From a virus (taxonomy: Duplodnaviria; Caudoviricetes), in the IMG/VR virus record IMGVR_UViG_3300033070_001371, positions 55,216 through 119,215 of that record: a stretch of 64,000 bases of DNA, one strand, 5' to 3'. Positions 1 through 55,828 of this stretch are shown here, piece after piece. Every line of letters begins with the position of its first letter. Position 1 is the first letter of the stretch. Made by a program: the position numbers and the translations under genes. The notes beneath the pieces are model-generated. The model was not told where the DNA came from and did not search any database. It worked only from the letters and a program-made list of their open reading frames with translations.

Positions 1-4
1 GCAC

Positions 5-2929
5 ATGATCGTGCCGACCGCGCCGGTCGCAGGCACGGTGGCGAAGGTCGACGACCAGTTTGTGTACATCAAGCCGCACGCCGAGAAGCGGAGCGCAGCG
101 GGCGACGCAGCCCTGGTCAAAGTGCCCTACTACGAAAAGTTCCCGTTTCCGTCGAAAACGTTTCTTGATCACGCCGTTGACGTGAAGGTCGGCGACAAGG
201 TCGAAGAGGGTCAGCGCCTCGCGGAATCGAACTACACGCGCGACGGCGTGCTCGCGCTCGGCAAGAACCTGCGCGTCGGCTACCTGCCGTACTACGGGTA
301 CAACTCCAACGACGCGGTCGTGATCTCCGACGCGGCGTCGAAGAAGCTGACCAGCGAACACATGTACCGCGAGGTCTTCCCGCTCGGCACGGGCATCGAG
401 CTGAACCGCGCGAAGCACCATCTCTACTACGGCGCGAAGTACCCCGCGCAGATGTACAGCAAGCTCGACGAGGGGGGCGTCATCAAGAAGGGCGCGAAGG
501 TCGACCCGAAGGACCTGCTTGTCGCGGGCCTGATGAAGCAGGCCGTGACCGGCACCGACGCGATGCTCGGACGCCTCGGCAAGTCACTCGTCAAGCCGTT
601 CAAGGACATCGCGCTCGTGTGGGACCACGGCGTGCCAGGCGAAGTCGTGGACGTGGTGCGCGCGAGCGGCCAGATCACGATCCTCGTGAAGACGCGCGAG
701 GCCATGCAGGTCGGCGACAAGCTCGCGGGCCGCTACGGCAACAAGGGCGTCGTCGCAAAGATCGTCCCGGACCACGAGATGCTGCGCGACGAGCAGGGGC
801 ACCCGCTCGACCTGCTGCTCACCTCGGCCGGCGTCGTCTCACGCATCAACCCGGCGCAGGTCATCGAGACGGCCGTGGCGAAAGTCGCGGACAAGACCGG
901 CAAGCCGATCGTTTACGACAACGCAGCGGGGCATAACGCCGTAAAGTGGGCGCGCAATCTGATGCGCGAGCACGGCGTCAAGGACAAGGAGGAGCTCTAC
1001 GACCCGGTGCTCCAGCGCAAGGTCGTGGGCGCGGACGGCAAGGGCGTGCTCGTCGGCAAGCAGTACATCTACAAGCTGTTCAAGAGCACCGACACCAACT
1101 TCGCCGGGCACGGCGTCGGGCCGTACGACCTCAACGAGCAGCCACTCAAGACCGGCGGCGACGAGAGCGCCAAGGGCCTCGGCAAAATGGAGTTCGACGC
1201 GCTGCTCGCGCACAACGCACGCAACTTCCTGCGCGAGGCCGCGACGGTGCGCGGCCAGAAGAACGACGAGTACTGGAAGGCCGTGCAGACGGGGCTACCG
1301 CTGCCGGCGCCAAAGCCGTCGTTCGCGTTCAACAAGTTCCTCGGGCTGCTCGAAGGCTCAGGCGTCAAGGTCGACAAGCGCGGCTCAAAGTTCGCGCTCC
1401 TGCCGATGACCGACAAGGACGTGCTCGCGCGCAGCGCGGGCGCGATCGAGCACGGCGCGACGGTGCGCGCGAAAGACCTCAAGCCCGAGACCGGCGGCCT
1501 GTTCGACCCGCGCAAGACCGGCGGCACGCAGGGCACACTCTTCGCGCACATCGACCTGCACGAGCCGGTGCCGAACCCAGTGTTCGAGGAGCCGGTGCGG
1601 CGCCTGCTCGGCATGACCGAGACGAAGTTCAAGGAAGCGCTCCGCGAGCACGGCGGCACTTGGTTTCGTTCGGAGCTCGCGAAGATCGACGTGCCGCGAA
1701 AGCTGCGCGAGCTGCGCGAGCAGCTCAAGAACGCCAAGGGCCCCGCGCTCAACGACGTGGTCAAGCAGATCAAGTACCTCGAAGCGCTTCAGGCCCACAA
1801 GCTCGGACCCGCCGAGGCGTACGTGATCAGCAAAGTGCCGGTCATCCCTCCGGTGTTCCGTCCAATTCAGCCCGGTGTGCGCGACCCTTCGCAGCTGATG
1901 GTCGCCGACGCGAACAAGCTCTACGGCCAATTGTTCGACTCGAACAAAACGCTGAAGACGACGGCCGTCGCATCCGACTTGGGCAAGCACCGCCAGGACC
2001 TCTACGAAAAGATGGAGGAGCTGTACGGCACGACGCTGCCGCACGATCCCAAACTCCAGCAACAGAAGGTCAAGGGGCTGCTTGCATCGGTAGCCGGTGT
2101 TGGCTCGCCGAAGGGTGGCTTCTTTCAGCGCAAGCTGATGCGCCGCACGCAGGACGTCTCGGGACGTGGCACCGCTGTGCCTGACTCAAACCTTGGGATG
2201 GACGAGGTCGGCATCCCCGAGCCGATGTTGTGGCAATCGCTCGACAAGTTGATCGTCGCGCGCCTGATCCGCACCGGTTACCCCGCGCTTCAAGCGCGCG
2301 AGATGGTGAACGCGAAGGCGCCAGCCGCGCGCGACGCAATGCTCGCCGAGGTGCGAGACCGCCCAGCGATCATCAACCGGGCGCCGACGCTGCATCGAGG
2401 CTCGATCGTCGCCGCGTACGCCAAGCCCGTACCCGGCAAGACGATCCGCGTCTCGTCGTTCACCGAGAAGGGCATGAACCTGGACTACGACGGGGACACC
2501 TTGCAAGTGCACTTCCCGATCGGCGCTGAGGCTGTCGAGGACGCCAAGAAGATGACGCTGAGTAACATGTTGCTCAGCGACCAGCAGCGGGACAAGCTGA
2601 TGGTGTTCCCGCAGCACGAGGCGATCATCGCGTTCACGCTGGCAGCGAAGCACACGACGCCGACGGGTCCTGTACGGAAGTTCAAGACCCGTGAAGACGC
2701 GCTCGCAGCGTATCGGCGCGGAGAACTGAAACTCTCCGACGCCATCGAGATCGAGAACGAAAAGCGCGCCGAAGCCGAAGCGCTTGCAGACGGCTTCGGA
2801 ATGGGCGCGGAGCTCGATGTACCGTTCTATCCCGTCGAGCCCGACGAAGCGCTATCCTACTTCCCGCCAGAGCTGCTCACGGGCGAAGGCGACGAGGACG
2901 AGGACCCCGATGTTCGACTTCTTGAATGA
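5..2929 (+). CDS. rpoB/rpoC-like: Phage multisubunit RNA polymerase: fused beta C-terminal half + beta' N-terminal half (catalytic); may be 5'-truncated by the window edge
   Basis: beta motifs GYNSNDAV, GDKLAGRYGNKGVV, SRINPAQ, GKMEFDAL; then beta' motifs FAHIDL, VPVIPPVFRP, SGRGTAVP, NRAPTLHR and catalytic NLDYDGD (cf. NADFDGD). Confidence 0.95.
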   Translation: MIVPTAPVAGTVAKVDDQFVYIKPHAEKRSAAGDAALVKVPYYEKFPFPSKTFLDHAVDVKVGDKVEEGQRLAESNYTRDGVLALGKNLRVGYLPYYGYNSNDAVVISDAASKKLTSEHMYREVFPLGTGIELNRAKHHLYYGAKYPAQMYSKLDEGGVIKKGAKVDPKDLLVAGLMKQAVTGTDAMLGRLGKSLVKPFKDIALVWDHGVPGEVVDVVRASGQITILVKTREAMQVGDKLAGRYGNKGVVAKIVPDHEMLRDEQGHPLDLLLTSAGVVSRINPAQVIETAVAKVADKTGKPIVYDNAAGHNAVKWARNLMREHGVKDKEELYDPVLQRKVVGADGKGVLVGKQYIYKLFKSTDTNFAGHGVGPYDLNEQPLKTGGDESAKGLGKMEFDALLAHNARNFLREAATVRGQKNDEYWKAVQTGLPLPAPKPSFAFNKFLGLLEGSGVKVDKRGSKFALLPMTDKDVLARSAGAIEHGATVRAKDLKPETGGLFDPRKTGGTQGTLFAHIDLHEPVPNPVFEEPVRRLLGMTETKFKEALREHGGTWFRSELAKIDVPRKLRELREQLKNAKGPALNDVVKQIKYLEALQAHKLGPAEAYVISKVPVIPPVFRPIQPGVRDPSQLMVADANKLYGQLFDSNKTLKTTAVASDLGKHRQDLYEKMEELYGTTLPHDPKLQQQKVKGLLASVAGVGSPKGGFFQRKLMRRTQDVSGRGTAVPDSNLGMDEVGIPEPMLWQSLDKLIVARLIRTGYPALQAREMVNAKAPAARDAMLAEVRDRPAIINRAPTLHRGSIVAAYAKPVPGKTIRVSSFTEKGMNLDYDGDTLQVHFPIGAEAVEDAKKMTLSNMLLSDQQRDKLMVFPQHEAIIAFTLAAKHTTPTGPVRKFKTREDALAAYRRGELKLSDAIEIENEKRAEAEALADGFGMGAELDVPFYPVEPDEALSYFPPELLTGEGDEDEDPDVRLLE

Positions 2930-3395
2930 GTTGTTGGGCGCGCACGCTTCTGGCGCGCCCCCGAAAAGTGCGCCGTCCGGCAGCGAGCACGTAGCGTGTC
3001 TCCAGGCGATCCTCGCTAAGAAGTACGCGCTGCTGCTCGCCTACGTTTCGTACGGCGATCAGCTCCGGTCGATCTGCCGGGACGGCGTGTTCGAGCACTT
3101 TCAAGAGCACATCAAGGAAGAACGCGACGCCATCTACCAACTCAACAAGAAGATCACGGCGCTCGGCGGTGATGCTGTCGTATCTCCAGGCCATGTGCCT
3201 TCCGTGCCGCTCGACCAACCTCGCGCCGTGTTCGAGGCAGTGCTGAACTTGGAGCAGGCCGTCGTCGCGCTGTGGTCCGATTTGTTCCACAAGACCCCCG
3301 ACGACGTGCCGCTCAACGCGATGGCGCAAGATGGTGCCCTCGTCGACCAGCAACACGCCGACGACATGCGGCGCTACCTTCGGAGTGAGTGCTGA
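2910..3395 (+). CDS. Ferritin/bacterioferritin-like four-helix protein
   Basis: EHFQEHIKEERDAIYQLNKKITALGG and LEQ...DQQHADD resemble ferritin-like helices; ATG 2910 overlaps the RNAP gene end. Confidence 0.7.
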   Translation: MFDFLNELLGAHASGAPPKSAPSGSEHVACLQAILAKKYALLLAYVSYGDQLRSICRDGVFEHFQEHIKEERDAIYQLNKKITALGGDAVVSPGHVPSVPLDQPRAVFEAVLNLEQAVVALWSDLFHKTPDDVPLNAMAQDGALVDQQHADDMRRYLRSEC

Positions 3396-3772
3396 TGCCG
3401 GACCTCAAGGACATCGCGCGCGGCGTAACGACCCGCCTCAAGAAGCGTCAGCGAGGTTTTCACTTCGACAAGGAGCCGGGTTTTTACGGCGTAACAAAGA
3501 GCTTCGGCGACGCCGCCAAGCAGAAACTCGCCAGCGAAGCGCGCGCTCGTGCGATCCGCAAGGTCGCGGCGAAGTACGCGCTGCTTGACGAGTCGGGCGA
3601 ACCTGTGGAAGCGCTCGCGAAGCTCTTTGCACAGAGTAACTTCGGTTACGGCGACGCGCCCGTCGCCCCGAAGCGTACCGGCGACCCCCTCTGGGGCGCG
3701 TCGATGGGTATGCCGGCGGAGCCCGGCGACCGCAATGGGCTGAGCCGCAATCTCACGTACGGAGGAGTTTGA
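3395..3772 (+). CDS. Hypothetical protein (K-x-A motifs, probable virion protein)
   Basis: TGATG-coupled ORF; QKLAS, RKVAA. Confidence 0.65.
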   Translation: MPDLKDIARGVTTRLKKRQRGFHFDKEPGFYGVTKSFGDAAKQKLASEARARAIRKVAAKYALLDESGEPVEALAKLFAQSNFGYGDAPVAPKRTGDPLWGASMGMPAEPGDRNGLSRNLTYGGV

Positions 3773-4110
3773 TGATCACGAAGGAAGCGCTCGACGCCGC
3801 GCGGTCGCGCGGTGCACAGAAGATCTTGGCTCGCTACGGCCTCGACAAGGTCAGCGGAATCATGTCGACCCTCGGCAGCGCGGCTACGCGCGCGCTCGGC
3901 GCCGGGACCAAGGCGTACCAGCACGGCGGCGGCAGCATGATGCAGAACGTCGGCAAGGGCATCGCGGCCGGAGCCAAGGGCTTCCAGCGTGCGGGCGGCG
4001 TGCCGGCGGCGGGCAAGGCGCTCGGCGTGGCCGCAGCGGGAGGGGCGGCAGCGTACGGCGCGGGACGCGCGTTCGGCGCCGGGCAGGCCGCGTCGCAGCA
4101 GCAGCAGTGA
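3769..4110 (+). CDS. Small Gly/Ala-rich protein with hydrophobic glycine-zipper-like C-terminus
   Basis: GGAG SD; ALGVAAAGGAAAYGAG. Confidence 0.65.
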   Translation: MMITKEALDAARSRGAQKILARYGLDKVSGIMSTLGSAATRALGAGTKAYQHGGGSMMQNVGKGIAAGAKGFQRAGGVPAAGKALGVAAAGGAAAYGAGRAFGAGQAASQQQQ

Positions 4111-4142
4111 CACACGGGCGCGAGGCAGCGTAACCTTTCGCC

Positions 4143-5942
4143 ATGCCCACGACGGTCGGCCAGTTCCTGATCAATGACGTGATGCCCGAGGGTTACAAGA
4201 TCTCGGGTCCGCTCACGAACAAGGCGCTACACGACCACGTCGTCGGTCTCGCCAAAGCGGACCCTCAGAAATACGTCTCGACGGTGCTCGCGCTCAAGCG
4301 GCGCGGCGACGAAATCGCGACGCTCGAAGGCATCTCGGTCGGGCTCGATGACATTGAGCCCGACTACGAGGCGCGCGACGCGATCGTGCGCCCGGCGCTC
4401 GCGAAGCTCGACAAGCTCAAGGACCCGGGAGCCCGCGAGCGCGTGATCGTCGAGACGCAGGCGCAACTGCTCGCGCACACCAAGCAGCACCCTGGTTCGA
4501 TGACCCACATGGCGCTCTCAGGAGCGCGCGGCAATCCGGCGCAGCTCATGAAGATCGTCGCCACGCCGCTCGCGACAGTGAATCCAAAGCACGGCGTGGT
4601 TCATCAGCTGATCGACCGCTCGTACTCCGAAGGCCTGACTCCAGCCCAGTACTGGTTGACAGGACCAGAGATCCGCGAGAACGAGGTCAAAGCGCGCATC
4701 TCCGTCTCGGAGCCGGGAGAGATGGCCAAGGTTCTCGTCGCCAACATGATCTCTAAGGTCGTCACGACGACCGACTGCGGGACCATGAACGGCGTAAAGA
4801 TGTCGATCGACGACGGACACGTGCTCGATCGCTTCACGCAGGCTGACCACGGCTTGCCGCGAAACACCCTCGTCACGCCGCAGCTCGTCCAGCAACTCAA
4901 AGCGCGCCACGTGGACCGTGTACTTGTGCGCTCGCCGATGACATGCGTCGCGCAACACGGGGTCTGTCAGATGTGCCAGGGTCACAACGAGAAGGGACAA
5001 CCGCACCCGATCGGCATGACTGTAGGCGTGCGTGCCGCGCAAGCGATGGCTGAACCGTTGACGCAGATGGCGCTTTCGTCGCGCCACGGCACGCTCACGG
5101 TGAAGGCCACGGACAAAGCGCCGACCGGCTTGAAGGGTGTGCGCCAGCTGTTGGAAGTTCCTGCCGCTTTCCGCCACGAAGCGGTGCTGGCGCCAGAGCA
5201 CGGCACCGTGACGAAAGTCGAGAAGGCGCCGCAAGGTGGCCACTATATCTACCTCGGCGCCAAGAAGGTCTACGCCGGGCCTGACCTGACGCTGCGCGCG
5301 AAGGCGGGAGACGTGGTCGAGCGCGGCGATGCGCTGACCGACGGCGTGCCTCACCCTGCGAAGGTCGTCGGCTACAAAGGACTTGGTGCCGGTCGTGCGT
5401 ACTTCGTAGACGCACTGCACAACTTATACAAGAATGAAGGGATCAACCTTGATCGCCGCCACTTGGAACTTCTCGCCAAGAGTGAGATCAATCACGTACG
5501 GCTACTCGACGCTGATCCCGACCACCCAGAGCTGCTCAAGGGCGACATCGTCAACTACAACGCCTTCCGCGAGGCGTACCAGAAGGGCTCCGCTCGCGTG
5601 CAGGTAGATGACGCTGTAGGGAAGCGGCTGGGGCAAGAGGTGTTGCATCACACTGTCGGTACACCCGTGACGCCTGCGCTCGCCCGCGATCTCAAAGCGC
5701 ACGGGGTTGCTGAGGTCTATGTCAACCGGTCTATGCCTCCGGTGGAATTCGTCATGAAGCCGTTCACAATGAATCCTCTGCTGGAGAAGGACTGGATGGC
5801 CCGCCTCGCGCACCGCTATCTCAAGAGCACGATTCAGGAGGCGGCACACTTCGGCGAGACCGCCGACATCCACGGAACCCACCCCGTACCGGCGTATGCT
5901 TTCGGCGCGGAACTTCACCATGGAGCCGGCGGTGCATTCTGA
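4143..5942 (+). CDS. rpoC-like: RNA polymerase beta' C-terminal subunit
   Basis: TTVGQFLIN (cf. TTVGR), SGARGN, EGLTPAQY, DCGT, VRSPMTC...GVCQMCQG zinc site, GVRAAQAMAEPLTQ trigger-loop region, GLKGVRQLLE. Confidence 0.95.
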   Translation: MPTTVGQFLINDVMPEGYKISGPLTNKALHDHVVGLAKADPQKYVSTVLALKRRGDEIATLEGISVGLDDIEPDYEARDAIVRPALAKLDKLKDPGARERVIVETQAQLLAHTKQHPGSMTHMALSGARGNPAQLMKIVATPLATVNPKHGVVHQLIDRSYSEGLTPAQYWLTGPEIRENEVKARISVSEPGEMAKVLVANMISKVVTTTDCGTMNGVKMSIDDGHVLDRFTQADHGLPRNTLVTPQLVQQLKARHVDRVLVRSPMTCVAQHGVCQMCQGHNEKGQPHPIGMTVGVRAAQAMAEPLTQMALSSRHGTLTVKATDKAPTGLKGVRQLLEVPAAFRHEAVLAPEHGTVTKVEKAPQGGHYIYLGAKKVYAGPDLTLRAKAGDVVERGDALTDGVPHPAKVVGYKGLGAGRAYFVDALHNLYKNEGINLDRRHLELLAKSEINHVRLLDADPDHPELLKGDIVNYNAFREAYQKGSARVQVDDAVGKRLGQEVLHHTVGTPVTPALARDLKAHGVAEVYVNRSMPPVEFVMKPFTMNPLLEKDWMARLAHRYLKSTIQEAAHFGETADIHGTHPVPAYAFGAELHHGAGGAF

Positions 5943-6564
5943 CTTCGCGGATCGACTGAACGCCGTAAAGACAGCGGCCCGGGCGCGCGTGCTCGGACGG
6001 TACGGGCTTAAGGACCTGTTCCGCGAGCACACCATCGCCCCGGCTGCGCCCGGTGTCACCAACAAGGCCAAAGCATTCGGCAAACACGTCGCAGAATTCG
6101 GACGCGAGGCTGTCTTCGGTAGTCCGATCACCGTCGCAAAGCAGCTCGCTGACCGCTACAAGCAAACCGGTAGCGTCGCCCGAGCGATGGGCGGCCACGC
6201 CAAAGACTTCTACCTCTCACCCGGATCGCCGACATGGCTGAAGGCCCTATCCCTCGGTATGCCCGCGATGGAGCTCGGTAACATCGCGCTGCGCGGCGAC
6301 CCAGAGACTCGCAAGGGCGACATCGCACACGCGATCTCGGGCATGGCGGCTGCGCCGTTCACGGCGCGACTCGGCCTGCTCGGCATCCCAGTCCAGGGCG
6401 CGGTACAGGGTGCCGCGCGCTACTTGGGGTCGAAGTTCGACCCGAAGCCTGCCCCAACACCCACGCCCGAAAATATCGAGCTGGACGTACCGAAACACCT
6501 GATGCGCGCGTGGAAGAGCAACTCTCCGCTCGCGCTGAGCGACGACAACCCCGCTGCGACCTAG
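5920..6564 (+). CDS. Hypothetical protein (probable virion internal protein)
   Basis: Overlaps upstream stop; VKTAA motif; hydrophobic Gly-rich segment. Confidence 0.6.
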   Translation: MEPAVHSDFADRLNAVKTAARARVLGRYGLKDLFREHTIAPAAPGVTNKAKAFGKHVAEFGREAVFGSPITVAKQLADRYKQTGSVARAMGGHAKDFYLSPGSPTWLKALSLGMPAMELGNIALRGDPETRKGDIAHAISGMAAAPFTARLGLLGIPVQGAVQGAARYLGSKFDPKPAPTPTPENIELDVPKHLMRAWKSNSPLALSDDNPAAT

Positions 6565-6595
6565 ACTACGCACTGGAGCCAAGGAGCACCCCCCA

Positions 6596-8203
6596 ATGAC
6601 GACGACTCTGTTCACCCGCACGCTTCTCAAGGGCATGGCCGACGGCATGTCCGACGCCGGGCGCATGGCGCCCTTCGCGAACGACGACCTCGCCATCGGG
6701 GTCTTCGACAAGATCGCGACCGACCTCGGTCTGCCGCAGGTCCTCGAAGAGCCGCTGCCGAACGACACCTACGTGAAGATGGGCCAGTGGCTCATCGACG
6801 CTTCGGAGACGGCCGTGGCGAGCGGTCACGCTCCCTCGGCGTCGCTCCAGGCGATGGCGAAGCAGGCGTCGCACATGCCGCTGGAAGAGCGCGCGATGAA
6901 GATCGCCGCGTTCATGATGCACAAGACGGCGGAAGAGGCGTCGCTGAACGGCACCGGGTCGAACACCCCGGAGAGCGCGACGCAGACCAGCGCGGTCGCC
7001 GCGCTCGACCAGAAGAACCGGTCGTCCCTCCAGTACCTCGTCGGCATGGGCAAGACCGACATGCCCGAGGGTGGCGTGCTCGGCAAGCAGATGCCGCACC
7101 CGATGGCGCCCCAGGGTCCGGCGATCAACAACAGCCTCACCCACCTCGACAAGCAGGCCAGCGAGAAGATCGCGCGCGCCGCGACGTTCGTGCAGGGCCT
7201 CGCCAAGCGCGGCGCGGCGGTGACGCCGAAGACCGTGCTCGCGTCAGCAGCCCTCGCCGAGGGTGGAGCGGCGGGTCTCGAAGTGATGGCGCACATCGTG
7301 TCGACCGTGAAGACCGCCGAGGAACTCGACGGCATGCTCGACCACGTGATGGGCGCGCAGCAGGCGCACGGCGCCGAACCCGATCCGGCGCTCGTCGCCG
7401 CGATCGAACAGGTGCTGATGGAGCATGGCCTGCTCGGCGACGACGACGGCGACGAAGGTGCGCCGCCGAACGGCGACGACCAGGAGCCGCCCAACGCGGG
7501 CGAAGGCGACGGAGATCCCAAGGTCGCGGCCATGAAGGACGTGATGAAGGGACTCAAGAGCAAGGCGCGCGGCGCGGGCAAGTCCGTGAGCGGCGCTGCG
7601 GCGAAGGCCAAGGGCGCGGTGGGCGCGGCAGCCTCGAAGGCGAAGGAGAAGGCGAGCGACGTCGGAGCCTCGATCGCGGACGCAGCCAAGAAGCACGGAC
7701 CGGGGGCCGCCGTGGGCGCGGCTGTAGGCGCGGCCGGCGGCACGGCGGCGATGCACGCCGCCAAGAAGGACAAGGGCGAAGACAAGGAAGCCGCACTGCT
7801 CGCCGTGCTGAAGGCGGCAGCAGACGGCTCGCTCAACGAAGTCGGCGAGAACACCCCGGAGAGCGCGGCGAAGGACAACGCCAACGCCAAGCTCGACGAG
7901 GAGAACCGCGCGAAGAACGAGTACCTCAAGGGCAACGGCAAGACCGACATGCCGAACGTCGGACACGTCGGCGCCTCCATGGATGCGCCGAAGGGCCCGG
8001 AGAAGGTCAACCCCGACACGACGCCTGCACGCGAGACCAAGAGTGCGAGCTTCGACGAAGCGGTGAAGGCAGCGGCGGCTCAGTGGGGCGGCAAGCTCCC
8101 TGCGACGATGGGTCAGAACGAGAAGCGCGCCCACGTGATCGCGCTCGCCGGCATGCCGGAAGAGCTGCGCGAGGGCTACGTCGACCAGTTGCGACGGAGC
8201 TGA
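6596..8203 (+). CDS. Ala-rich head/internal protein with a duplicated ~45-aa motif
   Basis: AAGGAG SD; many K-x-A motifs; SLN..G.NTPESA...LD..NR...YL.G.GKTDMP occurs twice. Confidence 0.75.
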   Translation: MTTTLFTRTLLKGMADGMSDAGRMAPFANDDLAIGVFDKIATDLGLPQVLEEPLPNDTYVKMGQWLIDASETAVASGHAPSASLQAMAKQASHMPLEERAMKIAAFMMHKTAEEASLNGTGSNTPESATQTSAVAALDQKNRSSLQYLVGMGKTDMPEGGVLGKQMPHPMAPQGPAINNSLTHLDKQASEKIARAATFVQGLAKRGAAVTPKTVLASAALAEGGAAGLEVMAHIVSTVKTAEELDGMLDHVMGAQQAHGAEPDPALVAAIEQVLMEHGLLGDDDGDEGAPPNGDDQEPPNAGEGDGDPKVAAMKDVMKGLKSKARGAGKSVSGAAAKAKGAVGAAASKAKEKASDVGASIADAAKKHGPGAAVGAAVGAAGGTAAMHAAKKDKGEDKEAALLAVLKAAADGSLNEVGENTPESAAKDNANAKLDEENRAKNEYLKGNGKTDMPNVGHVGASMDAPKGPEKVNPDTTPARETKSASFDEAVKAAAAQWGGKLPATMGQNEKRAHVIALAGMPEELREGYVDQLRRS

Positions 8204-11633: not shown

Positions 11634-12485
11634 ATGGCTACATGGGATAACGCTGACTTCGACCGCGAGGCGACTGCTATCGCGCGCGCTTACTGGGCCG
11701 GCCGCGAGCAGAACGGCGCCGCGCTCAGCGAGCTCGCGACGAAGACCGCGCGCGACAACGGCCTCAACCCCGAACAGATCCGGCGCCTGTGCCGTAACGC
11801 CAACACCAAGGCGTTCGAGCAGAAGCACGCTGCCCTGAAGGGAGAGCCCGACCGTACGCCCAACTTCGAGCTTGCCGACCCTGAGTCAGTGATCGCCAGC
11901 CTCCACCAATCGGTGGCGTTGGCGCACACGAAACAAGCATCGGCCGAGTATCCTGATCTGCGGGACGAGTTCGCGCCTGCACTCGACCCGTCACTCTTCG
12001 CGCAGGAGAAGATCGCAGCGCTCACGCACGAGATCGACGGGTTCCTGGGACCGCGACGCTCCCCGCTGATTGAACTGCGCCGTGCGGAGAAGCTGGCGAG
12101 CGAGCTGGCAATCGAGCGCCACGCCCTCAACTTTGCGTGGGACGACGCGCTCAGCGTCATCGCGGCGCAGGCAAAGTTTCAAGGCTGGCGCCACGACGAC
12201 TTCGAGAAGAACGCCGTCGCGCTTTTCGGCGCCGACGTGCTCCCAGAGCTAAACGCCGTGCGCCACCGCTGCCGCCTCGGCGCACTCGGCGACGGCGCCG
12301 CCGAGGATGAAGTTGCGGCGAAACTCGCCGCGTTGCAAGACACGTGGGTTGGAGTGCCTGACGCGCTGACGGCGAAACTGAAGGAAGCCATGGACGTGCG
12401 CGCCAAGTTCGCGTCGCTCGTCGCGCGCCAAGAGGAGGTCGCGACCACGATTGCGAACCTCAAGAAGGTCGTGCGCCATGGATGA
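11634..12485 (+). CDS. Hypothetical head-module protein
   Basis: TKQAS, EKIAA, EKLAS, AKLAA motifs. Confidence 0.7.
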   Translation: MATWDNADFDREATAIARAYWAGREQNGAALSELATKTARDNGLNPEQIRRLCRNANTKAFEQKHAALKGEPDRTPNFELADPESVIASLHQSVALAHTKQASAEYPDLRDEFAPALDPSLFAQEKIAALTHEIDGFLGPRRSPLIELRRAEKLASELAIERHALNFAWDDALSVIAAQAKFQGWRHDDFEKNAVALFGADVLPELNAVRHRCRLGALGDGAAEDEVAAKLAALQDTWVGVPDALTAKLKEAMDVRAKFASLVARQEEVATTIANLKKVVRHG

Positions 12486-14796: not shown

Positions 14797-16704
14797 ATGG
14801 ACAAGCTCCTGGAATTGGACGAACGCTTCCCCAAGACAGGGGAGCCAACGGTGCAGCTGGTCGCGTGGCGCGGAGCGCGCGGCGGCCTGAGCATCGAGAA
14901 GCGCGCATTCACCGAGAGCCGTTCACCGCTCTACGACTTTCTCTCCACGGTGCAGCCTGAAGCTGGCGTCTCGTACATCCTCGTCAACGCGCTCGGCGCG
15001 TACGAGTTCTACGACGACAATCGCAACGGCGACGGCTTCCCGAACGCGCCGTACAAGGTCGGCGAGCTCGCGGCGTGCGGGCATCCAGAGTGCACTGGAT
15101 CGCTCGACGGCTGGATCGCAGAGCCCGAGACGCTCCACCACCACTACCAGTCGTTCGAGAAGCACGGCGGCATCTACAAGCACCACGTCAACAAGGACCC
15201 GACGAAGTCGCTGGGCTGGATCAACAAGGCGCTGCTCAACCCGTACATGCACCGGGTCGAGCTGCTGCTGAAGTTCGTCAACGGCCGCGACCCGGAGATC
15301 GCCCAGCGCATCGGCGACGGCGACTTCCCCGCCGTGTCGATGGGGTGTCACGTGCGCTGGGATGTCTGCACGATCTGCGGACACCGCGCCCCGACGCGCG
15401 CGCAGTACTGCGAGCACGCGCTGCGCATGCTGCGACGGGTGTTGCCCGACGGTCGCAAGGTCGCGGTGCTCAACCCGAGCCCGAAGTTCTTCGACATCAG
15501 CTTCGTTTTCCGACCGGCGGACCCCACGGGCTGGATGATGAAGAAGGTCGCGGGCGAAGCGCCGCTGCGCTACAGCGCCGACCTCGGCGAGCAGCTGCGC
15601 GCGTACGAGGCCCGCGCGATCAAGATCCGCACCGGTCGCGAGAAGACGGCCGAAGCCCTCGGCGGATCTTACGGCGTACAGGCCGCGAGCCTAGTGCGCG
15701 AGTGGCCGCGTCTACCAGACGCCGTCTACGCGGCAGCCAAGACGGCGGGCGTGACGAGCACGCTGGCGTCGCTCGCGGCGTGCGGCGTCGTGCTTGCGAC
15801 GGGTGAAGTTATCGACCTGTTCGCGAAGTCGGCGGGCGTCACGCCGACCGATGCCGACTTGGACCGGCTTGTCGCACTGGAGCCTGTGCTGACCGAAGTC
15901 GTAGCGCGCTACCCCGAGGTCGAAACGAAGCTCGGCTCGCTGGTCGCGTTGCGCGTCGATGCCGTGCGAGACGAACTCGTTGATCCGCTCGGAGGGTGGG
16001 TCGAAAAGCGCGGGGGCCTCGCCGACTACCTCCGCCAGCATGCGTACGCGCCGAGCGAATTGGGGCAGCTACCGATCGGTCCGGGCGCGTACTACCGCGC
16101 AACCGAGCCGGCGAAGACCGATATGTTCACGCTCTCCGATCCGTATACAGGTCGTCAGTACCAGACGACGCGGGGCGCAGCGATGGCGGCGCACGACGAG
16201 GACGTGAAAGCACAGCTCGGCTCGACCGCGCTGCTCGGCGCGCTCTACGCAGGCGGCCTGCGCGCCGCGCTCGGCCCTGGAGCCGGTGTGTGGTCGCTGC
16301 CGGCGGGCCTCGCGGCGGGGTACGCAACGCATCGCGCGCTGCGCAAGCGCTTCCGTCCCTACCGCTACAGCCGATACATCACCGACCAAGGCGTCCCCGT
16401 GTCGGGCGGAACGGAGTTCGTGAAGGTCTCGGCGTTCGAGCGCCCCGCGCGCGCCGACGTCGTGCACAAGGCCGCGTTTGACCTCGTCGAACGTGTCGGC
16501 CGTGCGGACTACGACGCCTTGCTGGCAAAGATTGCCCGCGACGGCGGCGCTGCTTACGCGCGGTGGCTCGCGGAAACCCCGCTGAGTGAAAAAGTCGCCG
16601 CGCTCGTCGCGGGTGCGGAGATCGAAACCGGCGACGCGCACGGCGCGCCGGGTCTGAATGTCGCGCGACTCGTCTCGAACATCAGTCGCTGCGTTTGGCG
16701 CTGA
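14797..16704 (+). CDS. Putative prohead (capsid maturation) protease with C-terminal extension
   Basis: NRNGDGF, YKHHVNKD, VSMGCHVRWDVCTICGH...YCEH, FFDISFVFRPAD match the Zn-finger-containing phage maturation protease pattern; lies upstream of scaffold and capsid genes. Confidence 0.7.
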   Translation: MDKLLELDERFPKTGEPTVQLVAWRGARGGLSIEKRAFTESRSPLYDFLSTVQPEAGVSYILVNALGAYEFYDDNRNGDGFPNAPYKVGELAACGHPECTGSLDGWIAEPETLHHHYQSFEKHGGIYKHHVNKDPTKSLGWINKALLNPYMHRVELLLKFVNGRDPEIAQRIGDGDFPAVSMGCHVRWDVCTICGHRAPTRAQYCEHALRMLRRVLPDGRKVAVLNPSPKFFDISFVFRPADPTGWMMKKVAGEAPLRYSADLGEQLRAYEARAIKIRTGREKTAEALGGSYGVQAASLVREWPRLPDAVYAAAKTAGVTSTLASLAACGVVLATGEVIDLFAKSAGVTPTDADLDRLVALEPVLTEVVARYPEVETKLGSLVALRVDAVRDELVDPLGGWVEKRGGLADYLRQHAYAPSELGQLPIGPGAYYRATEPAKTDMFTLSDPYTGRQYQTTRGAAMAAHDEDVKAQLGSTALLGALYAGGLRAALGPGAGVWSLPAGLAAGYATHRALRKRFRPYRYSRYITDQGVPVSGGTEFVKVSAFERPARADVVHKAAFDLVERVGRADYDALLAKIARDGGAAYARWLAETPLSEKVAALVAGAEIETGDAHGAPGLNVARLVSNISRCVWR

Positions 16705-16728: not shown

Positions 16729-17325
16729 ATGAACCTCGAAGACACGCTCCACAAGAAGATGCCGAAGAACGCCAGCGCGCAGCCCACCGCTGCGCCCGAC
16801 GGCAAGCCTGCCACCAAGACGGCGAGCGCAGTGGCCGACGCGCTCGCGTCCGTGACGCAGCCCTCCACCAAGACGGCGGCCGAGACGAGCCCGGCGGGTG
16901 CGGCGGCCCCTCTGTTCGACAAGCTCGCGGCAGAGCTCGCGGCGCAGGACCAGGAGGGCTCGCTCAAGCTGGCTCAGCTCTACGGCGCCAGCATCGCAGA
17001 CGGATTCATGTCGCAGCTCGGCATGTACGAGAAGGTCGCCGAGAGCCTCGTCTCGCAGCAGGCCGAGAAGGTCGCAGGCGCGGCGGGCACGCGCCAGGGT
17101 GACGTGTATCTCGACCCCGAGATGGTCGCGCTCGTGAAGGAGGCACAGGAGAACCCGCGCGCCTTTCTCGCGCGTGTGCAAAAGGCGGCCGAAGCCGAAG
17201 AAGCACAGCTCAAGGAGGCCGAGGACAAGGAAGCCGCCGAGCTGGAGCAGGTGGTCCAGGTCAAGGCCGCCGAGCACTACGCCCACGGCTACGAGATCGG
17301 CAAGCTCTTGGTGGGCGCGGGATGA
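16729..17325 (+). CDS. Scaffold-like coiled-coil protein
   Basis: AAGGAGAG SD; Ala/Glu-rich; about 9 K-x-A motifs; between protease and capsid. Confidence 0.6.
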   Translation: MNLEDTLHKKMPKNASAQPTAAPDGKPATKTASAVADALASVTQPSTKTAAETSPAGAAAPLFDKLAAELAAQDQEGSLKLAQLYGASIADGFMSQLGMYEKVAESLVSQQAEKVAGAAGTRQGDVYLDPEMVALVKEAQENPRAFLARVQKAAEAEEAQLKEAEDKEAAELEQVVQVKAAEHYAHGYEIGKLLVGAG

Positions 17326-17510: not shown

Positions 17511-17891
17511 ATGCCAACCCTCGACGAAACCCTGCGCACGCTGCCCCGGGCGTCTCGCCCGACAACCAAGACCGCTTCCGTGCTACCGGAGTCGCTCGCG
17601 GGACAGGTGCGAGCCCTGGCTGGCGCGCTGCGCGACCTGCCCGAGCCTCGAATCACGTGGGGGAGCCTGAACGCCGTAAAGATGGCAGGCTTCCGCTCAC
17701 CGCCGCCCGCGCCCCCCGCGCGAGAGGTACCGGAGGACGACGACCGTCCCAGTGCGCCGCTGCGAAAGTTGGCGCACGCCGTACGGAGCGCCGAGGACTT
17801 GCGTGCCGTACAGCTCTTCGAGAAGTCCGCCCTCGCGCTGCGTGCGGTGCGGGGTCTTACACTCCTTCGCGAACGGATCTCGTCGCCATGA
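17511..17891 (+). CDS. Hypothetical protein
   Basis: Abuts upstream stop; TKTAS, VKMAG, RKLAH, EKSAL. Confidence 0.6.
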   Translation: MPTLDETLRTLPRASRPTTKTASVLPESLAGQVRALAGALRDLPEPRITWGSLNAVKMAGFRSPPPAPPAREVPEDDDRPSAPLRKLAHAVRSAEDLRAVQLFEKSALALRAVRGLTLLRERISSP

Positions 17892-18922: not shown

Positions 18923-19846
18923 ATGTACAACACCGAGACGGTCCAGGCCAACGCAACGGCGTTGAACCAGAAGTTCGTGAGCATGCTCAGCTCCGGCAAC
19001 ACCAAGCTCGCGGAGGAGGCCGGCACGGCGTTCATCCGCTCGATCGTCCGCCAGGAAGCGGCGGTCCGCATGGTGCTGCCCCCGCAGCCCCTCCAGGACG
19101 ACGAGATCGACCGCGACGTCGACTCGGACGAGCCGCGCAAGATCGTGGAGAAGGAGCCTGACAGCTCCGCCACGTACGTGCAGTTCGACGGCACGCCGCG
19201 CGCGCGCTGGTTCCGTGGCAAGCGCTACGTGGTCTACTTCGGCAAGACCCAGAGCGACTTGTTCACGAAGAGCAAGTTCAAGCTGATGTCGTACCAGAAC
19301 GACATCCGCAAGATCTTGGCGGACAACTCGGTGAAGGACCTCGCCGACCAGGAAGACCTGTACTTCCGCCGCACGTGCCTCACGCTCGTGAACCGCAACT
19401 CGGCGAACCAGCGTACCAGCGTGGGCGCGTTCACGAACGGCGCGTTCGTGAAGGGCTTCCAAGCGATGGACAACCGTCGCCGCCCCATCGGCAAGATGCT
19501 CATGACCAACTCGCTGTACCGGGAGGCGATGAACCTCCCGGCCACGCTGATCGGCGACTCGATCGCGCGGAAGCACTACGAGGAGGGCATCGACAAGGAA
19601 GAGCGCCTCTGGGGAATTCCGGTCATCACGACCGCGAAGACCGACATCTACAACCCGCGCGAGTGCTGGATCTTCAGTCCGCAGAACTTCCTGGGGAACT
19701 TCTTCCTCCTCCAGGACGCGACGCTCTTCATCGAGCAGCGCGCGGACATCATCACGTTCTTCTCGTACGCCGCGCCCGGCATCGGCATCGGCAACGCCGA
19801 GTCGATGCAGCAGCTGGTGTTCGACACCCCGCCCTCCTCGATCTGA
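18923..19846 (+). CDS. Major capsid protein (HK97-fold, inferred)
   Basis: 307 aa; strong high-expression codon bias; follows protease/scaffold/decoration genes; N-terminal TKLAE site. Confidence 0.75.
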   Translation: MYNTETVQANATALNQKFVSMLSSGNTKLAEEAGTAFIRSIVRQEAAVRMVLPPQPLQDDEIDRDVDSDEPRKIVEKEPDSSATYVQFDGTPRARWFRGKRYVVYFGKTQSDLFTKSKFKLMSYQNDIRKILADNSVKDLADQEDLYFRRTCLTLVNRNSANQRTSVGAFTNGAFVKGFQAMDNRRRPIGKMLMTNSLYREAMNLPATLIGDSIARKHYEEGIDKEERLWGIPVITTAKTDIYNPRECWIFSPQNFLGNFFLLQDATLFIEQRADIITFFSYAAPGIGIGNAESMQQLVFDTPPSSI

Positions 19847-47266: not shown

Positions 47267-47610
47267 GGTGGAAGCGCCGGGAATCGAACCCGGGTCCGCG
47301 AAGCGTTCGATCGGACGTCTACGTCACCTGTCCCGCGTGTCTCTTCTCCCTCCGAGCATCCCCACGGGCAGGGTCTCGTCTGGTTTGGTGCTGAGTGTCT
47401 CGCCTGCGTAGGCTGCACCGCCCGCGCTCGCTATCCCGGTTTGTTGACGCCCCTGCCGGAAGATCCAGGAGTACCTCCGGCGGGACGGTCACGCAGCGAG
47501 CTGCTGCGGGACGGACGCGTTGTCGTTCGCGTTTCTACGTAGACCGTGAGGTGGTCTATTCCTATGACGCAATCTCGACCTAGTTCTCCACGTCGAAGCC
47601 TTTCGCTCCC
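47267..47610 (-). ncRNA. ssrA: tmRNA; tag ANDNASVPQQLAA* at 47530-47489
   Basis: 5' GGGAGCGAAAGGCTTCGAC pairs with 3' CGCTTCC-A including a G3:U wobble; T-arm CCGGGTTCGATTCCCGG; canonical ANDN...LAA tag. Confidence 0.95.
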
Positions 47611-48549: not shown

Positions 48550-49036
48550 AGTCGAGCTCCACGTTCGGCGTGAGGATGTCCTGGTTCCACCACGGCGGCG
48601 TCGCTGCGATCTCTCGCAAGTAACGGTCGTAGGCGTCCAAGACGGTCTCGGTCGGCACCCCGTGCACGTTGCGGCGCGCGCACTCGACAACGATGCTGGC
48701 GCTCTCCGTGTAGAGCGCGATGATCTTGTGCTTCCACCCGTAGGCTTGCGCGAGCAAGACGTACGGCGCGACTTCGATGTTCGAGATGTTGGTGTTGTCG
48801 ATGACGATGCACTGCGAGTCACGGGCATCCAGATAGTGCATCGCCCGTCGGAAGCAGTCCCCATGCGCCTCTGCGAGCTTCGAAGGATCGAATTGGTACT
48901 CCCCCGCCTTGGTGAAGTAGTGATCGGCCGAGACGATGTCGCCTCGCGTACCTGCGAGCTCCCTAGCCTTCGTGGTTTTACCCATCCCCGACAGCCCTCG
49001 CATGATGTAGATGACTTGATTCAGCTGGCTGTTCAT
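48539..49036 (-). CDS. P-loop kinase (AAA_33 / polynucleotide-kinase-like)
   Basis: IMRGLSGMGKTT, SADHYF, IVIDNTN, RNVHGVP. Confidence 0.85.
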   Translation of the reverse strand: MNSQLNQVIYIMRGLSGMGKTTKARELAGTRGDIVSADHYFTKAGEYQFDPSKLAEAHGDCFRRAMHYLDARDSQCIVIDNTNISNIEVAPYVLLAQAYGWKHKIIALYTESASIVVECARRNVHGVPTETVLDAYDRYLREIAATPPWWNQDILTPNVELDYAR

Positions 49037-49061
49037 TCTGTTCTCCTTGTTGTGCTTGTTG

Positions 49062-49385
49062 TTACTGCGTGGAAAGTTCAGCCCACCACTCGGGGCGTGA
49101 AGCAGGGCGCTCCAAGTCGGTGTAGAGCCTGAGATTCTTCTCGAAGGCGGCGTCATGCTCCGGCATCAGAGCCTGAATAGCCTGTTTCACCTTAGAGAGG
49201 TCTCCGAGAGCTTTGATCACCACGCGTCCCGCGACGTAGTGCCAGTCCACGGGCTGGCCACTCGCCTCTGCGAGCTTCTTGACCCACGCCTCTACGTCGG
49301 TCGCGAACAATGTGTGAGTGACGAAAACAACCTCCCCTTCTTCGTAAATTTTCGGATCACACGGAGGTAGGTCCTCAGCCAGCAA
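49062..49385 (-). CDS. Hypothetical protein
   Basis: AAGGAG SD; SGQPVDWHYVAGR. Confidence 0.6.
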   Translation of the reverse strand: MLAEDLPPCDPKIYEEGEVVFVTHTLFATDVEAWVKKLAEASGQPVDWHYVAGRVVIKALGDLSKVKQAIQALMPEHDAAFEKNLRLYTDLERPASRPEWWAELSTQ

Positions 49386-49839
49386 CAGGCTCCTTGTTGA
49401 AAACGTACAGTTCGTTAAAAGTTGCGCCCCGCTGCACCCTCAACCCCATTTTATCGAGGCGCGAGAAGAGATCGTGCACTAAGTCCGGGTACTTGTGTTG
49501 ATCGAGGTATCCCAAGATCGGGCAAGCCTCGAAGTCCATGACAAGCACGATGTTGCTGTCCGGCGGACCTGGGCGGAAGATCTCTCCGCCAAGGCAGTGA
49601 TACGCAGCAAGCCACGCGCGCACTTCAGTGGCGATTTTGTGAATACGTTGTAGAGAAGCGAGCCACGTGCGCGCGATGCTCAGCGTCACCACCTCACATC
49701 GCAGCTCATGACCCGCTCGATTCTCCGGTGCGCGCAGCATGATCACGGCATAGCCATCCCCTCTGCGCTCGATGCCGTACTCTCGCCCCGTCCGCAGCAC
49801 AGCCCCTGCGGCTTCCGCGAAGGCTTCTTGATACAGCAT
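49375..49839 (-). CDS. Hypothetical protein
   Basis: Abuts upstream gene. Confidence 0.55.
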   Translation of the reverse strand: MLYQEAFAEAAGAVLRTGREYGIERRGDGYAVIMLRAPENRAGHELRCEVVTLSIARTWLASLQRIHKIATEVRAWLAAYHCLGGEIFRPGPPDSNIVLVMDFEACPILGYLDQHKYPDLVHDLFSRLDKMGLRVQRGATFNELYVFNKEPVAG

Positions 49840-55824: not shown

Positions 55825-55828
55825 CTAC

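What the first reader, a model, noticed from the sequence alone, without database searches (positions are those of the whole stretch)
5..5942. Unusually partitioned multisubunit RNA polymerase: beta fused to the catalytic half of beta', with the rest of beta' a separate gene
Seen: ORF 5-2929 runs from beta C-terminal motifs directly into beta' motifs up to just past the active site, which is a non-canonical NLDYDGD. The Cys4 zinc-binding domain of the beta' N-terminus is missing (GLFDPRKTGGTQGTLFAHIDL). ORF 4143-5942 restarts at the TTVG motif, and three unrelated ORFs intervene. Established: phiKZ-like phages split beta and beta' into separate halves, and Helicobacter/Wolbachia fuse whole beta-beta'. 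This fusion-plus-split differs from both. Bridge helix and trigger loop are diverged (AMAEPLTQMALSSRH).
Basis: partly seen in the sequence, partly recalled or inferred. Interest (0 to 1): 0.72.

Follow-up and report, generated by a model that had tools for sequence, protein, structure and literature searches.

The report
Fused-then-split phage RNA polymerase
An uncultured high-GC phage of roughly 170-190 kb makes its only RNA polymerase from two unusual proteins (all of beta joined to the front half of beta-prime, and the back half of beta-prime on its own). The layout is shared by hundreds of environmental phages and a few cultured ones, and no paper I could search describes it.

Summary
The first ORF is cut by the window edge: the whole gene is 1515 codons and holds a complete beta fused, with no linker, to beta-prime up to just past the catalytic DxDGD. 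A 599-codon gene starting exactly at the TTVG motif supplies the rest of beta-prime. Three small genes lie between them.

This is not an artefact or a captured host gene. The same layout stands between the portal and capsid genes in 21 IMG/VR contigs, in phage-sized contigs binned into MAGs, and in Salmonella phage Arash (gp206 + gp216) and Vibrio phages D69/D148/D181.

The whole family lacks the beta-prime N-terminal zinc domain. Complete relatives show no alpha or omega homologue and a single catalytic locus, and they carry sigma-70-family genes.

The nearest relatives outside the split clade are about 57 single-chain beta::beta-prime fusions of about 2050 aa. In two quick trees the split forms are one clade, which points to a single split of an ancestral full fusion.

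In Arash, gp206 was the protein detected most in virion preparations, so this is probably an injected enzyme; that step is inferred. This scan has met the same layout on other genomes. I found no paper that describes it. It is a new variant of a known kind.

The parts
1..2929 (+). 3' 975 codons of the beta::beta'N gene. The full gene is 1515 codons and starts 1618 nt upstream of the window, at G000:C1:53597.
1..1384 (+). C-terminal part of the beta portion (Rpb2_6 DPBB and beta C-terminus). It ends at about ...GVKVDKRG, joined directly to beta'.
1385..2752 (+). beta' N-half: clamp core, clamp helices and catalytic DPBB. It ends after the conserved AYRRGELKLSDAIEI element. It matches rpoC_TIGR profile positions 163-536.
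1496..1558 (+). Site where the beta' Cys4 zinc-binding domain is deleted (GGLFDPRKTGGTQGTLFAHIDL).
2477..2497 (+). Catalytic motif NLDYDGD (DxDGD invariant in the family).
2753..2926 (+). 58-aa acidic C-terminal tail. It has K-R-A at 2762-2770 and a DEALSYFPPE motif, and is disordered in the model. Candidate propeptide or docking peptide.
2910..3395 (+). Ferritin-like 161-aa gene between the two polymerase genes. It overlaps the end of the fused gene by 20 nt and is conserved at this position in many relatives.
3389..3772 (+). 127-aa gene with no family match, conserved in closer relatives.
3769..4110 (+). 113-aa Gly/Ala-rich gene with no family match, conserved in close relatives.
4143..5942 (+). 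beta'C gene (599 aa). It starts at the TTVG motif and matches rpoC_TIGR profile positions 549-1070.
4623..4748 (+). Bridge-helix region (aa ~161-202), recognisable but diverged.
4776..4976 (+). Retained second beta' zinc site (C212, C268, C275, C278).
5037..5090 (+). Trigger-loop N-terminal arm (AAQAMAEPLTQMALSSRHG) with invariant His315.
18923..19846 (+). Major capsid protein (context). It is 40% identical to Arash gp226, so the polymerase genes lie between portal and capsid.

Best explanation
These genes encode the only RNA polymerase of a large tailed phage related to Salmonella phage Arash. It is a bacterial-type two-barrel enzyme built from two chains: beta::beta'N (1515 aa) and beta'C (599 aa).

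Shown here:
- Both catalytic barrels are present, with the DxDGD triad, bridge helix, trigger-loop His and the second zinc site.
- Beta's C-terminus runs straight into beta' with no linker.
- The beta' N-terminal zinc domain is deleted throughout the family.
- Complete relatives have one catalytic locus, no detectable alpha or omega, and sigma-70-family genes.

Inferred:
- The covalent beta-beta' link replaces the alpha-dimer assembly platform. This fits the natural beta-beta' fusions of Helicobacter and Wolbachia, which NCBIfam models as single proteins, and the tethered E. coli subunits, which as I recall remain active.
- beta'C docks non-covalently, as RpoC2 does in cyanobacteria.
- The phage sigma factors direct this core to phage promoters.
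- The enzyme is packed into the capsid and delivered with the DNA, so that transcription does not need the host polymerase.

History: the layout most likely arose once, when a single-chain beta::beta' fusion of about 2050 aa was cut in the surface loop after the beta' barrel. Other genes have since settled in the gap.
For: Domain content and motifs.

Conserved layout:
- 21 IMG/VR loci at 33-96% identity.
- Phage-sized contigs of 131-199 kb in MAGs.
- At least 120 clusters at 90% identity that all carry both Rpb2_6 and Rpb1_2; the 120th is still at 59% identity.
- Arash gp206 (1525 aa) and gp216 (606 aa), and Vibrio phages D69/D148/D181.

Synteny: sigma, ParB-like, SNF2 helicase, portal, polymerase genes, head proteins, capsid.

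Other subunits and polymerases:
- No RNA_pol_L or Rpb6 match in this contig, Arash or two complete genomes with terminal repeats; the controls rang in 14 of 14.
- One Rpb1_2 locus per genome.
- Sigma genes: a 274-aa protein reaches the sigma-70 superfamily cut-off over regions 2-4, and a 232-aa homologue of Arash gp10 has Sigma70_r3.

Virion association:
- In Arash virion preparations gp206 had the most spectra (3516). gp216 had 1210, sigma gp10 467 and helicase gp217 1148 (PMC10585845).
- Per residue (lengths) these four give 2.0-2.4, against 1.5 for the portal. This is my arithmetic.

History:
- About 57 complete single-chain fusions rank above all cellular beta' as relatives of beta'C; three were read directly (L019, L031, L037).
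- The split forms are one clade in a beta tree (SH-aLRT 96) and in a beta'C tree (100), both rooted on bacteria.
Against: There is no direct evidence of activity, assembly, promoter use or packaging for this phage.

The Arash particle proteome also holds ribonucleotide reductases, RNA ligases and a kinase. Its authors say that abundant intracellular proteins may have been carried over.

This contig is only 69% complete. Alpha or omega analogues too diverged for Pfam models would be missed.

The trees are quick searches under a simple model. They have long branches, an unresolved backbone and few outgroups.

Phage sigma factors usually redirect the host polymerase, and that use is not excluded here.

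The structure models were of low confidence (pLDDT 65 and 59).
Confidence: 0.72

Rival explanations
1. The same two-chain polymerase is real, but it is made only inside the infected cell for middle and late genes. It is not a virion component. Early genes are read by the host polymerase, perhaps redirected by one of the phage sigma factors.
For: The Arash particle proteome lists 88 proteins, including clearly metabolic enzymes, so carry-over is plausible. Phage sigma factors classically act on the host enzyme. Arash gp206 has no C-terminal tail, so the tail seen here cannot be a general packaging signal.
Against: There is a single polymerase locus per genome. The genes lie between portal and capsid across the whole family. 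gp206 has the highest spectral count in Arash, and counts per residue are similar for both chains, sigma gp10 and helicase gp217.
Confidence: 0.22
2. The two genes are halves of one gene that is rejoined, by an intron, a split intein or read-through, to give a single beta::beta' chain like that of the distant relatives.
For: Distant relatives are single chains. Inteins are common in this family.
Against: - The gap holds three tightly packed genes, of which the ferritin-like one is conserved at this position down to 33% identity.
- Rfam finds no RNA family, and so no intron model, in window 1-8000.
- beta'C has only Met-Pro before the conserved TTVG, which leaves no room for a C-intein.
- The upstream chain ends in tails that vary from 0 to 58 aa, with a stop codon in every relative.
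- The gap ranges from about 0.7 to 5.1 kb and in Arash holds genes on the opposite strand.
Confidence: 0.02
3. It is host rpoB-rpoC DNA, a chimeric assembly, or a decaying relic with no function.
For: None beyond the general similarity to bacterial beta and beta'.
Against: Scores are 3- to 17-fold below the cellular equivalog cut-offs. The genes are embedded in conserved phage synteny. The frames are intact, with invariant catalytic residues, across about 100 sequences examined. The phage clade is monophyletic against bacterial sequences. Peptides covering 100% of gp206 and 89% of gp216 were detected in Arash.
Confidence: 0.01

Closest known systems
Salmonella phage Arash gp206 + gp216 (OQ632216; PMC10585845) and Vibrio phages D69/D148/D181
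   Same: Same two-chain partition: 35% identity over 96% of the fused chain and 29% over beta'C. Same position after the portal gene, homologous capsid and head proteins, two sigma-like genes, and no alpha or omega match.
   Different: Arash has no acidic tail, reads AADYDGD, and has 4.7 kb with nine genes (several on the opposite strand) in the gap. Its paper annotates the proteins as beta and beta' and does not mention a fusion.
Uncultured single-chain phage beta::beta' fusions (about 1980-2150 aa; e.g. L019, L031, L037, P0126-P0203)
   Same: Same tight beta-beta' junction and the same loss of the N-terminal zinc domain. They are closer to this beta'C than any cellular beta'.
   Different: They are not split, so beta' is continuous across the TTVG position. 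They share only 27-35% identity with this phage. L019 has no Cys at all.
phiKZ/AR9-type jumbo-phage virion and non-virion RNA polymerases
   Same: Phage-encoded two-barrel enzymes without alpha or omega. Beta' is split after the DPBB domain. One set is packaged and injected (PMC7598289).
   Different: Those phages split beta into two or three pieces, have no beta-beta' fusion, carry two paralogous sets and have no sigma-family factor. Here beta is whole and fused, there is one set, and sigma-70-family genes are present.
Cyanobacterial and plastid RpoC1 (gamma) / RpoC2 split
   Same: Beta' is cut in the region after the catalytic barrel. The fused chain matches the rpoC1 profile at positions 188-561 of 619. 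beta'C residues 119-316 match rpoC2 profile positions 120-334, so the N-termini nearly coincide.
   Different: Gamma is not fused to beta. The gamma profile runs about 58 positions past the phage break, so the cut is probably some tens of residues away. Alpha, omega and the zinc domain are present in those enzymes.
Helicobacter / Wolbachia rpoBC fusion (NF007172, NF011417)
   Same: Beta's C-terminus is joined to beta's N-terminus in one chain.
   Different: Those are complete cellular subunits of about 2840-2890 aa that work with alpha and omega, and beta' is not split. The scores here are 312 and 267 bits against cut-offs of 5372 and 4632.
mReC phages (Weinheimer and Aylward 2020, PMC7481178)
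   Same: Uncultured tailed phages, with contigs up to about 180 kb, that encode a deep-branching bacterial-like beta and beta'.
   Different: mReC members have separate adjacent beta (about 1000-1377 aa) and beta' (about 900-1009 aa) proteins, and were required to show NADxDGD. The contigs I saw listed had 24-39% GC. Their relation to this family was not tested.

Membership tests
Two-barrel (multisubunit-type) DNA-dependent RNA polymerase, bacterial branch | Beta-type DPBB domain (Rpb2_6) with flanking beta domains | tested here: met
   Pfam Rpb2_2, Rpb2_3 and Rpb2_6 (7e-39). PDB beta chains match aa 75-~1000 at 8e-69.
Two-barrel (multisubunit-type) DNA-dependent RNA polymerase, bacterial branch | Beta'-type DPBB with the DxDGD metal-binding triad | tested here: met
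   Rpb1_2 at 1e-17. NLDYDGD is present, and DxDGD is invariant in all relatives read.
Two-barrel (multisubunit-type) DNA-dependent RNA polymerase, bacterial branch | Bridge helix and trigger loop in the beta' C-half | tested here: met
   Rpb1_5. HMMER alignments to Thermus beta' run across both elements, and H315 is invariant. Foldseek gives bacterial beta' chains at E 3e-24.
Bacterial core enzyme alpha2-beta-beta'-omega | Alpha dimer and omega subunits | tested here: not met
   No PF01193 or PF01192 match in this contig, Arash or two complete relatives; the controls rang in 14 of 14. Very diverged analogues cannot be excluded.
Bacterial core enzyme alpha2-beta-beta'-omega | Beta' N-terminal Cys4 zinc-binding domain | tested here: not met
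   The domain is deleted in every aligned family member, and the fused chain has 0 Cys.
Cellular rpoBC full fusion (Helicobacter/Wolbachia type) | One polypeptide holding all of beta and all of beta' | tested here: not met
   There is a stop at window 2927-2929 and a separate 599-aa gene. NF007172 scores 312 bits against a 5372 cut-off.
Cyanobacterial/plastid RpoC1-RpoC2 split | Free gamma subunit and a break at the rpoC1/rpoC2 boundary | tested here: not met
   The N-half is fused to beta. The break falls at rpoC_TIGR profile positions 537-548, while the gamma profile extends about 58 positions further. Scores are 107 bits against cut-offs of 976-1117. The exact offset remains inconclusive.
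phiKZ/AR9-type jumbo-phage RNA polymerases | Split beta, two paralogous sets (virion and non-virion), no sigma-family factor | tested here: not met
   Beta is whole. There is one Rpb1_2 locus per genome. Sigma70_r2 genes are present. Family features are taken from PMC7598289.
Arash-like two-chain phage RNA polymerase (unnamed family) | A beta::beta'N chain of about 1450-1530 aa (without inteins) plus a beta'C chain of about 590-630 aa starting at the TT(V/L)G motif | tested here: met
   1515 aa and 599 aa; the same boundaries appear in 20 or more loci and in Arash.
Arash-like two-chain phage RNA polymerase (unnamed family) | Position between the portal and major capsid genes, with phage sigma genes elsewhere in the genome | tested here: met
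   Portal homologue (31% to gp204) two genes upstream. Capsid (40% to gp226) at window 18923-19846. Sigma genes at C1:44893-45717 and C1:14514-15212.
Arash-like two-chain phage RNA polymerase (unnamed family) | Presence of the enzyme in virions | not testable with these tools
   The only evidence is the Arash particle proteome. Nothing is known for this phage.
mReC clade (PMC7481178) | Separate beta and beta' proteins of at least 800 aa each, with NADxDGD | tested here: not met
   Here beta is fused, beta' is split and the motif is NLDYDGD. Phylogenetic relation was not tested.

The most novel reading that the evidence does not exclude
This family is a self-sufficient, minimal bacterial-type holoenzyme: beta::beta'N, beta'C and a phage sigma, with no alpha, omega or beta' zinc domain. 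It is loaded into the capsid and injected, so a phage of about 180 kb transcribes its whole genome with one enzyme and is independent of the host polymerase. In the branch to which this window belongs, the invariant K-x-A at the start of the acidic C-terminal tail would be a head-protease site, and the tail a removable capsid-targeting or docking peptide.
Probability: 0.3. Interest if true: 0.8.

Novelty: new variant of a known kind. Interest (0 to 1): 0.62.

Why it matters
Phage multisubunit polymerases of the phiKZ and AR9 type are the only well-studied cases of a cellular-type polymerase that assembles without alpha.

This family offers a second solution, which I take to be independent: tether beta to beta' instead of fragmenting them. 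It keeps recognisable sigma-70-family partners, which could make its promoter recognition comparable with that of bacterial enzymes.

It has cultured members in Salmonella and Vibrio, so assembly, sigma use, rifampicin sensitivity, packaging and structure are all directly testable.

The family also records an evolutionary series (single chain, then split, then repeated invasion by inteins). That series bears on how subunit boundaries of this ancient enzyme move. The split lies near the rpoC1/rpoC2 break, which suggests that this loop is a generally permissive cutting point.

Tried and rejected
- **Structure prediction.** The models were poor. beta'C with 16 sequences gave pLDDT 65 and pTM 0.32. 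The window part of the fused chain with 10 sequences gave pLDDT 59. I used them only for a Foldseek confirmation of the beta' fold and to note that the tail is disordered. The second model was not searched.
- **Complex prediction.** beta'N (residues 445-925 of the window part) with the 274-aa sigma returned no verdict. It is no evidence either way.
- **Genome collection, single protein.** The scan found nothing. The alignment scan found only phage-like contigs in MAGs, so no host could be assigned.
- **Promoter and terminator scan.** It found no sigma-70 consensus site and no excess of terminators around the genes. My crude gene calling was too incomplete for an intergenic motif search.
- **Rfam.** Nothing in window 1-8000.
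- **T7-type polymerase search.** It found nothing, but its control was silent, so it is uninformative.
- **Peptidase_M23 label.** Some full fusions carry it, which looked like a virion-lysin fusion. It turned out to be a weak match inside the Rpb1_5 region (33 bits; no stretch passed the threshold on its own). I dropped it.
- **InPase label.** On inserts at about aa 570 in relatives it is below the Pfam cut-off (24.9 against 26.8) and remains unverified.
- **P0171.** This apparently unfused 1091-aa beta' nests inside the full fusions and comes from a 3.9-kb contig. It is probably a fragment.
- **Ferritin-like protein.** No PDB, PHROG or NCBIfam match.
- **Cyanobacterial break.** Its exact offset from the phage break could not be fixed from the profile coordinates alone.
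Full report
**Where the window lies, and what the ORFs are**

The window is the last 64 kb of a 119,215-bp IMG/VR virus record that CheckV rates 69% complete. In the full record it is a 1515-codon frame, G000:C1:53597-58144.

- Pfam finds beta domains Rpb2_2, Rpb2_3 and Rpb2_6 at aa 121-923. It then finds beta' domains Rpb1_1 (weak) and Rpb1_2 at aa 1009-1392.
- Against solved structures, aa 75 to about 1000 match whole bacterial beta chains. The best are cyanobacterial and Thermus chains, at E 8e-69 to 1e-67.
- aa 1091-1468 match beta' residues of about 170-580, and also the cyanobacterial gamma subunit.
- The second ORF (window 4143-5942, 599 aa) carries Rpb1_5 and a weak Rpb1_4. It aligns to Thermus and Streptomyces beta' from the TTLGR motif (Streptomyces residue 660) through the bridge helix, the second zinc site and the trigger loop.
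- A model of it, though only of moderate confidence, retrieves bacterial beta' chains at E 3e-24.
- Against the NCBIfam rpoC profile, the first chain covers positions 163-536 and the second covers 549-1070. Together they make one beta', cut within about a dozen profile positions.

- *Junction.* Beta's C-terminal element (...GVKVDKRG) runs directly into the beta' N-terminal strand (SKFALLPMTD...). There is no linker, and every relative is the same.
- *Zinc domain.* The beta' zinc-binding domain is replaced by 12 residues without Cys, again in every relative. The fused chain has no Cys at all.
- *Second zinc site.* beta'C keeps exactly four Cys, at the second zinc site.
- *Catalytic motif.* NLDYDGD is the usual form in this clade. 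Only DxDGD is invariant.
Its His is invariant.
- *Intervening genes.* Three + strand genes lie between the halves: 2910-3395 (ferritin-like), 3389-3772 and 3769-4110. They are tightly packed and overlap each other.

**It is a conserved phage feature**

- A scan of IMG/VR returned 21 loci with the same fused gene at 33-96% identity. Wherever the contig reaches far enough, a separate beta'C gene lies 0.7-3.2 kb downstream.
- The gene order around it is conserved: sigma-like, ParB-like, SNF2 helicase, portal, a 136-aa gene, the fused gene, the gap genes, beta'C, then head proteins.
- The ferritin-like gap gene is itself conserved at this position down to 33% identity.
- The protein database lists at least 120 clusters that all carry both Rpb2_6 and Rpb1_2. 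The 120th is still 59% identical, so the family is much larger.
- Cultured members exist. Salmonella phage Arash has gp206 (1525 aa) and gp216 (606 aa). Vibrio phages D69, D148 and D181 have the same pair.
- Arash shares the portal, capsid (40% identity), several head proteins, the large terminase and sigma gp10 with this contig. The polymerase genes therefore sit inside the head-gene block in both phages.
- Further copies lie on contigs of 131-199 kb that were binned into MAGs of unrelated phyla. I read this as mis-binning of phage genomes, not as host evidence.

**What the enzyme lacks and what it has**

- This contig, Arash and two complete relatives with terminal repeats (191 and 187 kb) have no match to the alpha (RNA_pol_L) or omega (Rpb6) families. 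The controls rang in all 14 reference genomes.
- Each genome has a single Rpb1_2 locus. This contrasts with the paired virion and non-virion sets of phiKZ-type phages.
- Each complete genome has at least one Sigma70_r2 gene.
- This contig has two sigma genes. A 274-aa protein reaches the sigma-70 superfamily cut-off across regions 2 to 4. A 232-aa homologue of Arash gp10 has a Sigma70_r3 match.
- The beta' clamp-helix segment, which by textbook knowledge is the docking site of sigma region 2, lies within the segment that aligns with B. subtilis beta'.

**How it most likely works**

- *Shown:* a complete catalytic core in two chains, and one such enzyme per genome.
- *Inferred from established knowledge:* in bacteria the alpha dimer nucleates assembly and omega chaperones beta'. 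A covalent beta-beta' tether can stand in for that. This fits the natural fusions of Helicobacter and Wolbachia (modelled as NF007172 and NF011417) and, from memory, artificially tethered E. coli subunits that remain active.
- beta'C would dock as RpoC2 does in cyanobacteria.
- The phage sigma factors most plausibly serve this core, although use on the host enzyme is not excluded.

**Virion association is the weakest step**

- In Arash particle preparations gp206 gave the most spectra of any protein (3516). gp216 gave 1210, sigma gp10 467 and helicase gp217 1148.
- Divided by length, these four give 2.0-2.4 spectra per residue. The portal gives 1.5 and the capsid protein 4.3. This hints at a stoichiometric complex that is not rare.
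- The same list contains ribonucleotide reductases and RNA ligases, and the authors warn of carry-over.

**The C-terminal tail**

- After the conserved AYRRGELKLSDAIEI element, this phage's fused chain has a 58-aa acidic tail.
- Among the listed homologues in which the element was found, 72 have a tail of 20-200 aa. Of these, 71 have K-x-A within the first six to eight tail residues. An acidic run and an EAL-x-(Y/F)(Y/F/W)P(P/A)E-like motif follow, while the rest of the tail varies freely.
- Twelve homologues, and Arash, end within 11 residues of the element.
- K-x-A is over-represented in several head-block proteins of this contig (13 against 3.4 expected in the 198-aa protein at 16729-17325; 9 against 2.8 at 11634-12485). 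It is not over-represented in the polymerase bodies (12 against 12.3; none against 3.9 expected in beta'C).
- This fits a head-protease site that removes a targeting or docking peptide, an idea raised by earlier notes of this scan. The homologues are related, which inflates the count. The tail-less Arash enzyme shows that the tail is not needed for whatever brings the enzyme into particles.

**History**

- Three distant relatives are uninterrupted single chains: L019 (2115 aa), L031 (1983 aa) and L037 (2028 aa). In L019 beta' runs straight through the position of the break.
- A search for longer relatives of beta'C found about 57 such full fusions of roughly 1990-2150 aa, on contigs up to 220 kb. 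All of them rank above every cellular beta'.
- In a quick maximum-likelihood tree of the beta part, rooted on four bacterial beta sequences, the phage sequences are one clade. The 21 split forms are one clade (SH-aLRT 96), with the three full fusions at the base.
- In a tree of the beta'C region with 94 rows, rooted on nine bacterial beta' sequences, the 25 split forms are again one clade (SH-aLRT 100) among several full-fusion lineages.
- Both trees use a simple model and a short search. Both have long branches and an unresolved backbone. I take from them only that one split event suffices and that a fused ancestor is the simplest reading.
- After the split, the gap took up different genes in different lineages. 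It ranges from 0.7 kb to 5.1 kb, with opposite-strand genes in Arash.

**Comparison with what is known**

- The review of jumbo-phage polymerases states that beta' of both phiKZ-type enzymes is split after the DPBB domain, at a position that coincides with the cyanobacterial split. The break here lies in that same region.
- From the profile coordinates, the cyanobacterial break is probably some tens of residues further on. I could not fix the offset.
- The mReC phages of Weinheimer and Aylward have separate adjacent beta and beta' proteins, and were filtered for NADxDGD. This family would not have passed that filter, and its relation to mReC is untested.
- Searches for the fusion in phage literature found no description. 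They covered the Arash paper, the jumbo-phage reviews of 2020, 2021 and 2026, and a 2025 paper on large aquatic phages.
- Earlier reports of this scan describe the same layout on other genomes and in other windows of this genome. I re-derived the points I use here.

**Verdict**

This is a real, widespread and apparently undescribed variant of phage-encoded multisubunit RNA polymerase, with cultured representatives in which every inferred step can be tested.

Noticed in passing
L006, L011, L014, L017, L020-L023, L033 (fused gene); P0023-P0118: Many homologues of the fused gene carry in-frame insertions at recurring sites (about aa 400, 570, 782 and 1375 of the 1515-aa chain), of about 140 or about 350 codons. 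Several have LAGLIDADG or Hom_end Pfam labels, so they are probably inteins. The window's own gene has none.
   Followed up: partly
window 2910-3395: A ferritin-like four-helix protein (Pfam Ferritin 7.6e-12; no PDB, PHROG or NCBIfam match) is kept between the two polymerase genes in many relatives, down to 33% identity. Its role is unknown. It might be a polymerase accessory or a capsid-internal protein.
   Followed up: partly
window 47267-47610 (-), 55615-55911 (+): ARAGORN calls a tmRNA (tag ANDNASVPQQLAA) and a cluster of tRNA-Asn, tRNA-Gln and tRNA-Tyr in the lower-GC right part of the window.
   Followed up: no
window 42000-64000: GC falls from about 0.65-0.69 to 0.57-0.62, and GC3-based gene calling fails there. 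This suggests a different gene module or many small early genes.
   Followed up: no
window 6596-8203, 11634-12485, 14797-16704, 16729-17325, 17511-17891: K-x-A tripeptides are 2- to 7-fold over-represented in head-block proteins (for example 13 against 3.4 expected in a 198-aa scaffold-like protein). This fits a head-protease recognition motif.
   Followed up: partly
L029, L031-L037 (contigs of 131-199 kb in MAGs labelled Gemmatimonadaceae, Dependentiae, Alphaproteobacteria, Acidimicrobiaceae and others): Whole phage genomes of this family appear to be binned into bacterial MAGs of unrelated phyla. The taxonomic labels should not be read as hosts.
   Followed up: no
G007:C9:24166-28602 (Cytophagia MAG; part held as L052): The MAG's own rpoB and rpoC matches all lie in one open frame of 2706 aa. 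This is possibly a cellular beta-beta' fusion in a Bacteroidota genome.
   Followed up: no
G000:C1:45723-46946 (-) and 48931-50976 (-), upstream of the window: A ParB-like protein (weak ParB_N and HTH_ParB matches) and an SNF2-family helicase lie between the sigma gene and the portal, conserved across relatives. An SNF2-type helicase also tracks the polymerase genes in phiKZ-type phages (PMC7824862).
   Followed up: no
P0027, P0032, P0037 and others; insert at about aa 577-635 of P0027: Some relatives carry an insert at the aa-570 site that is labelled as pyrophosphatase-like (PF18823, one also PF00719). In my scan the PF18823 match was just below the Pfam cut-off.
   Followed up: partly
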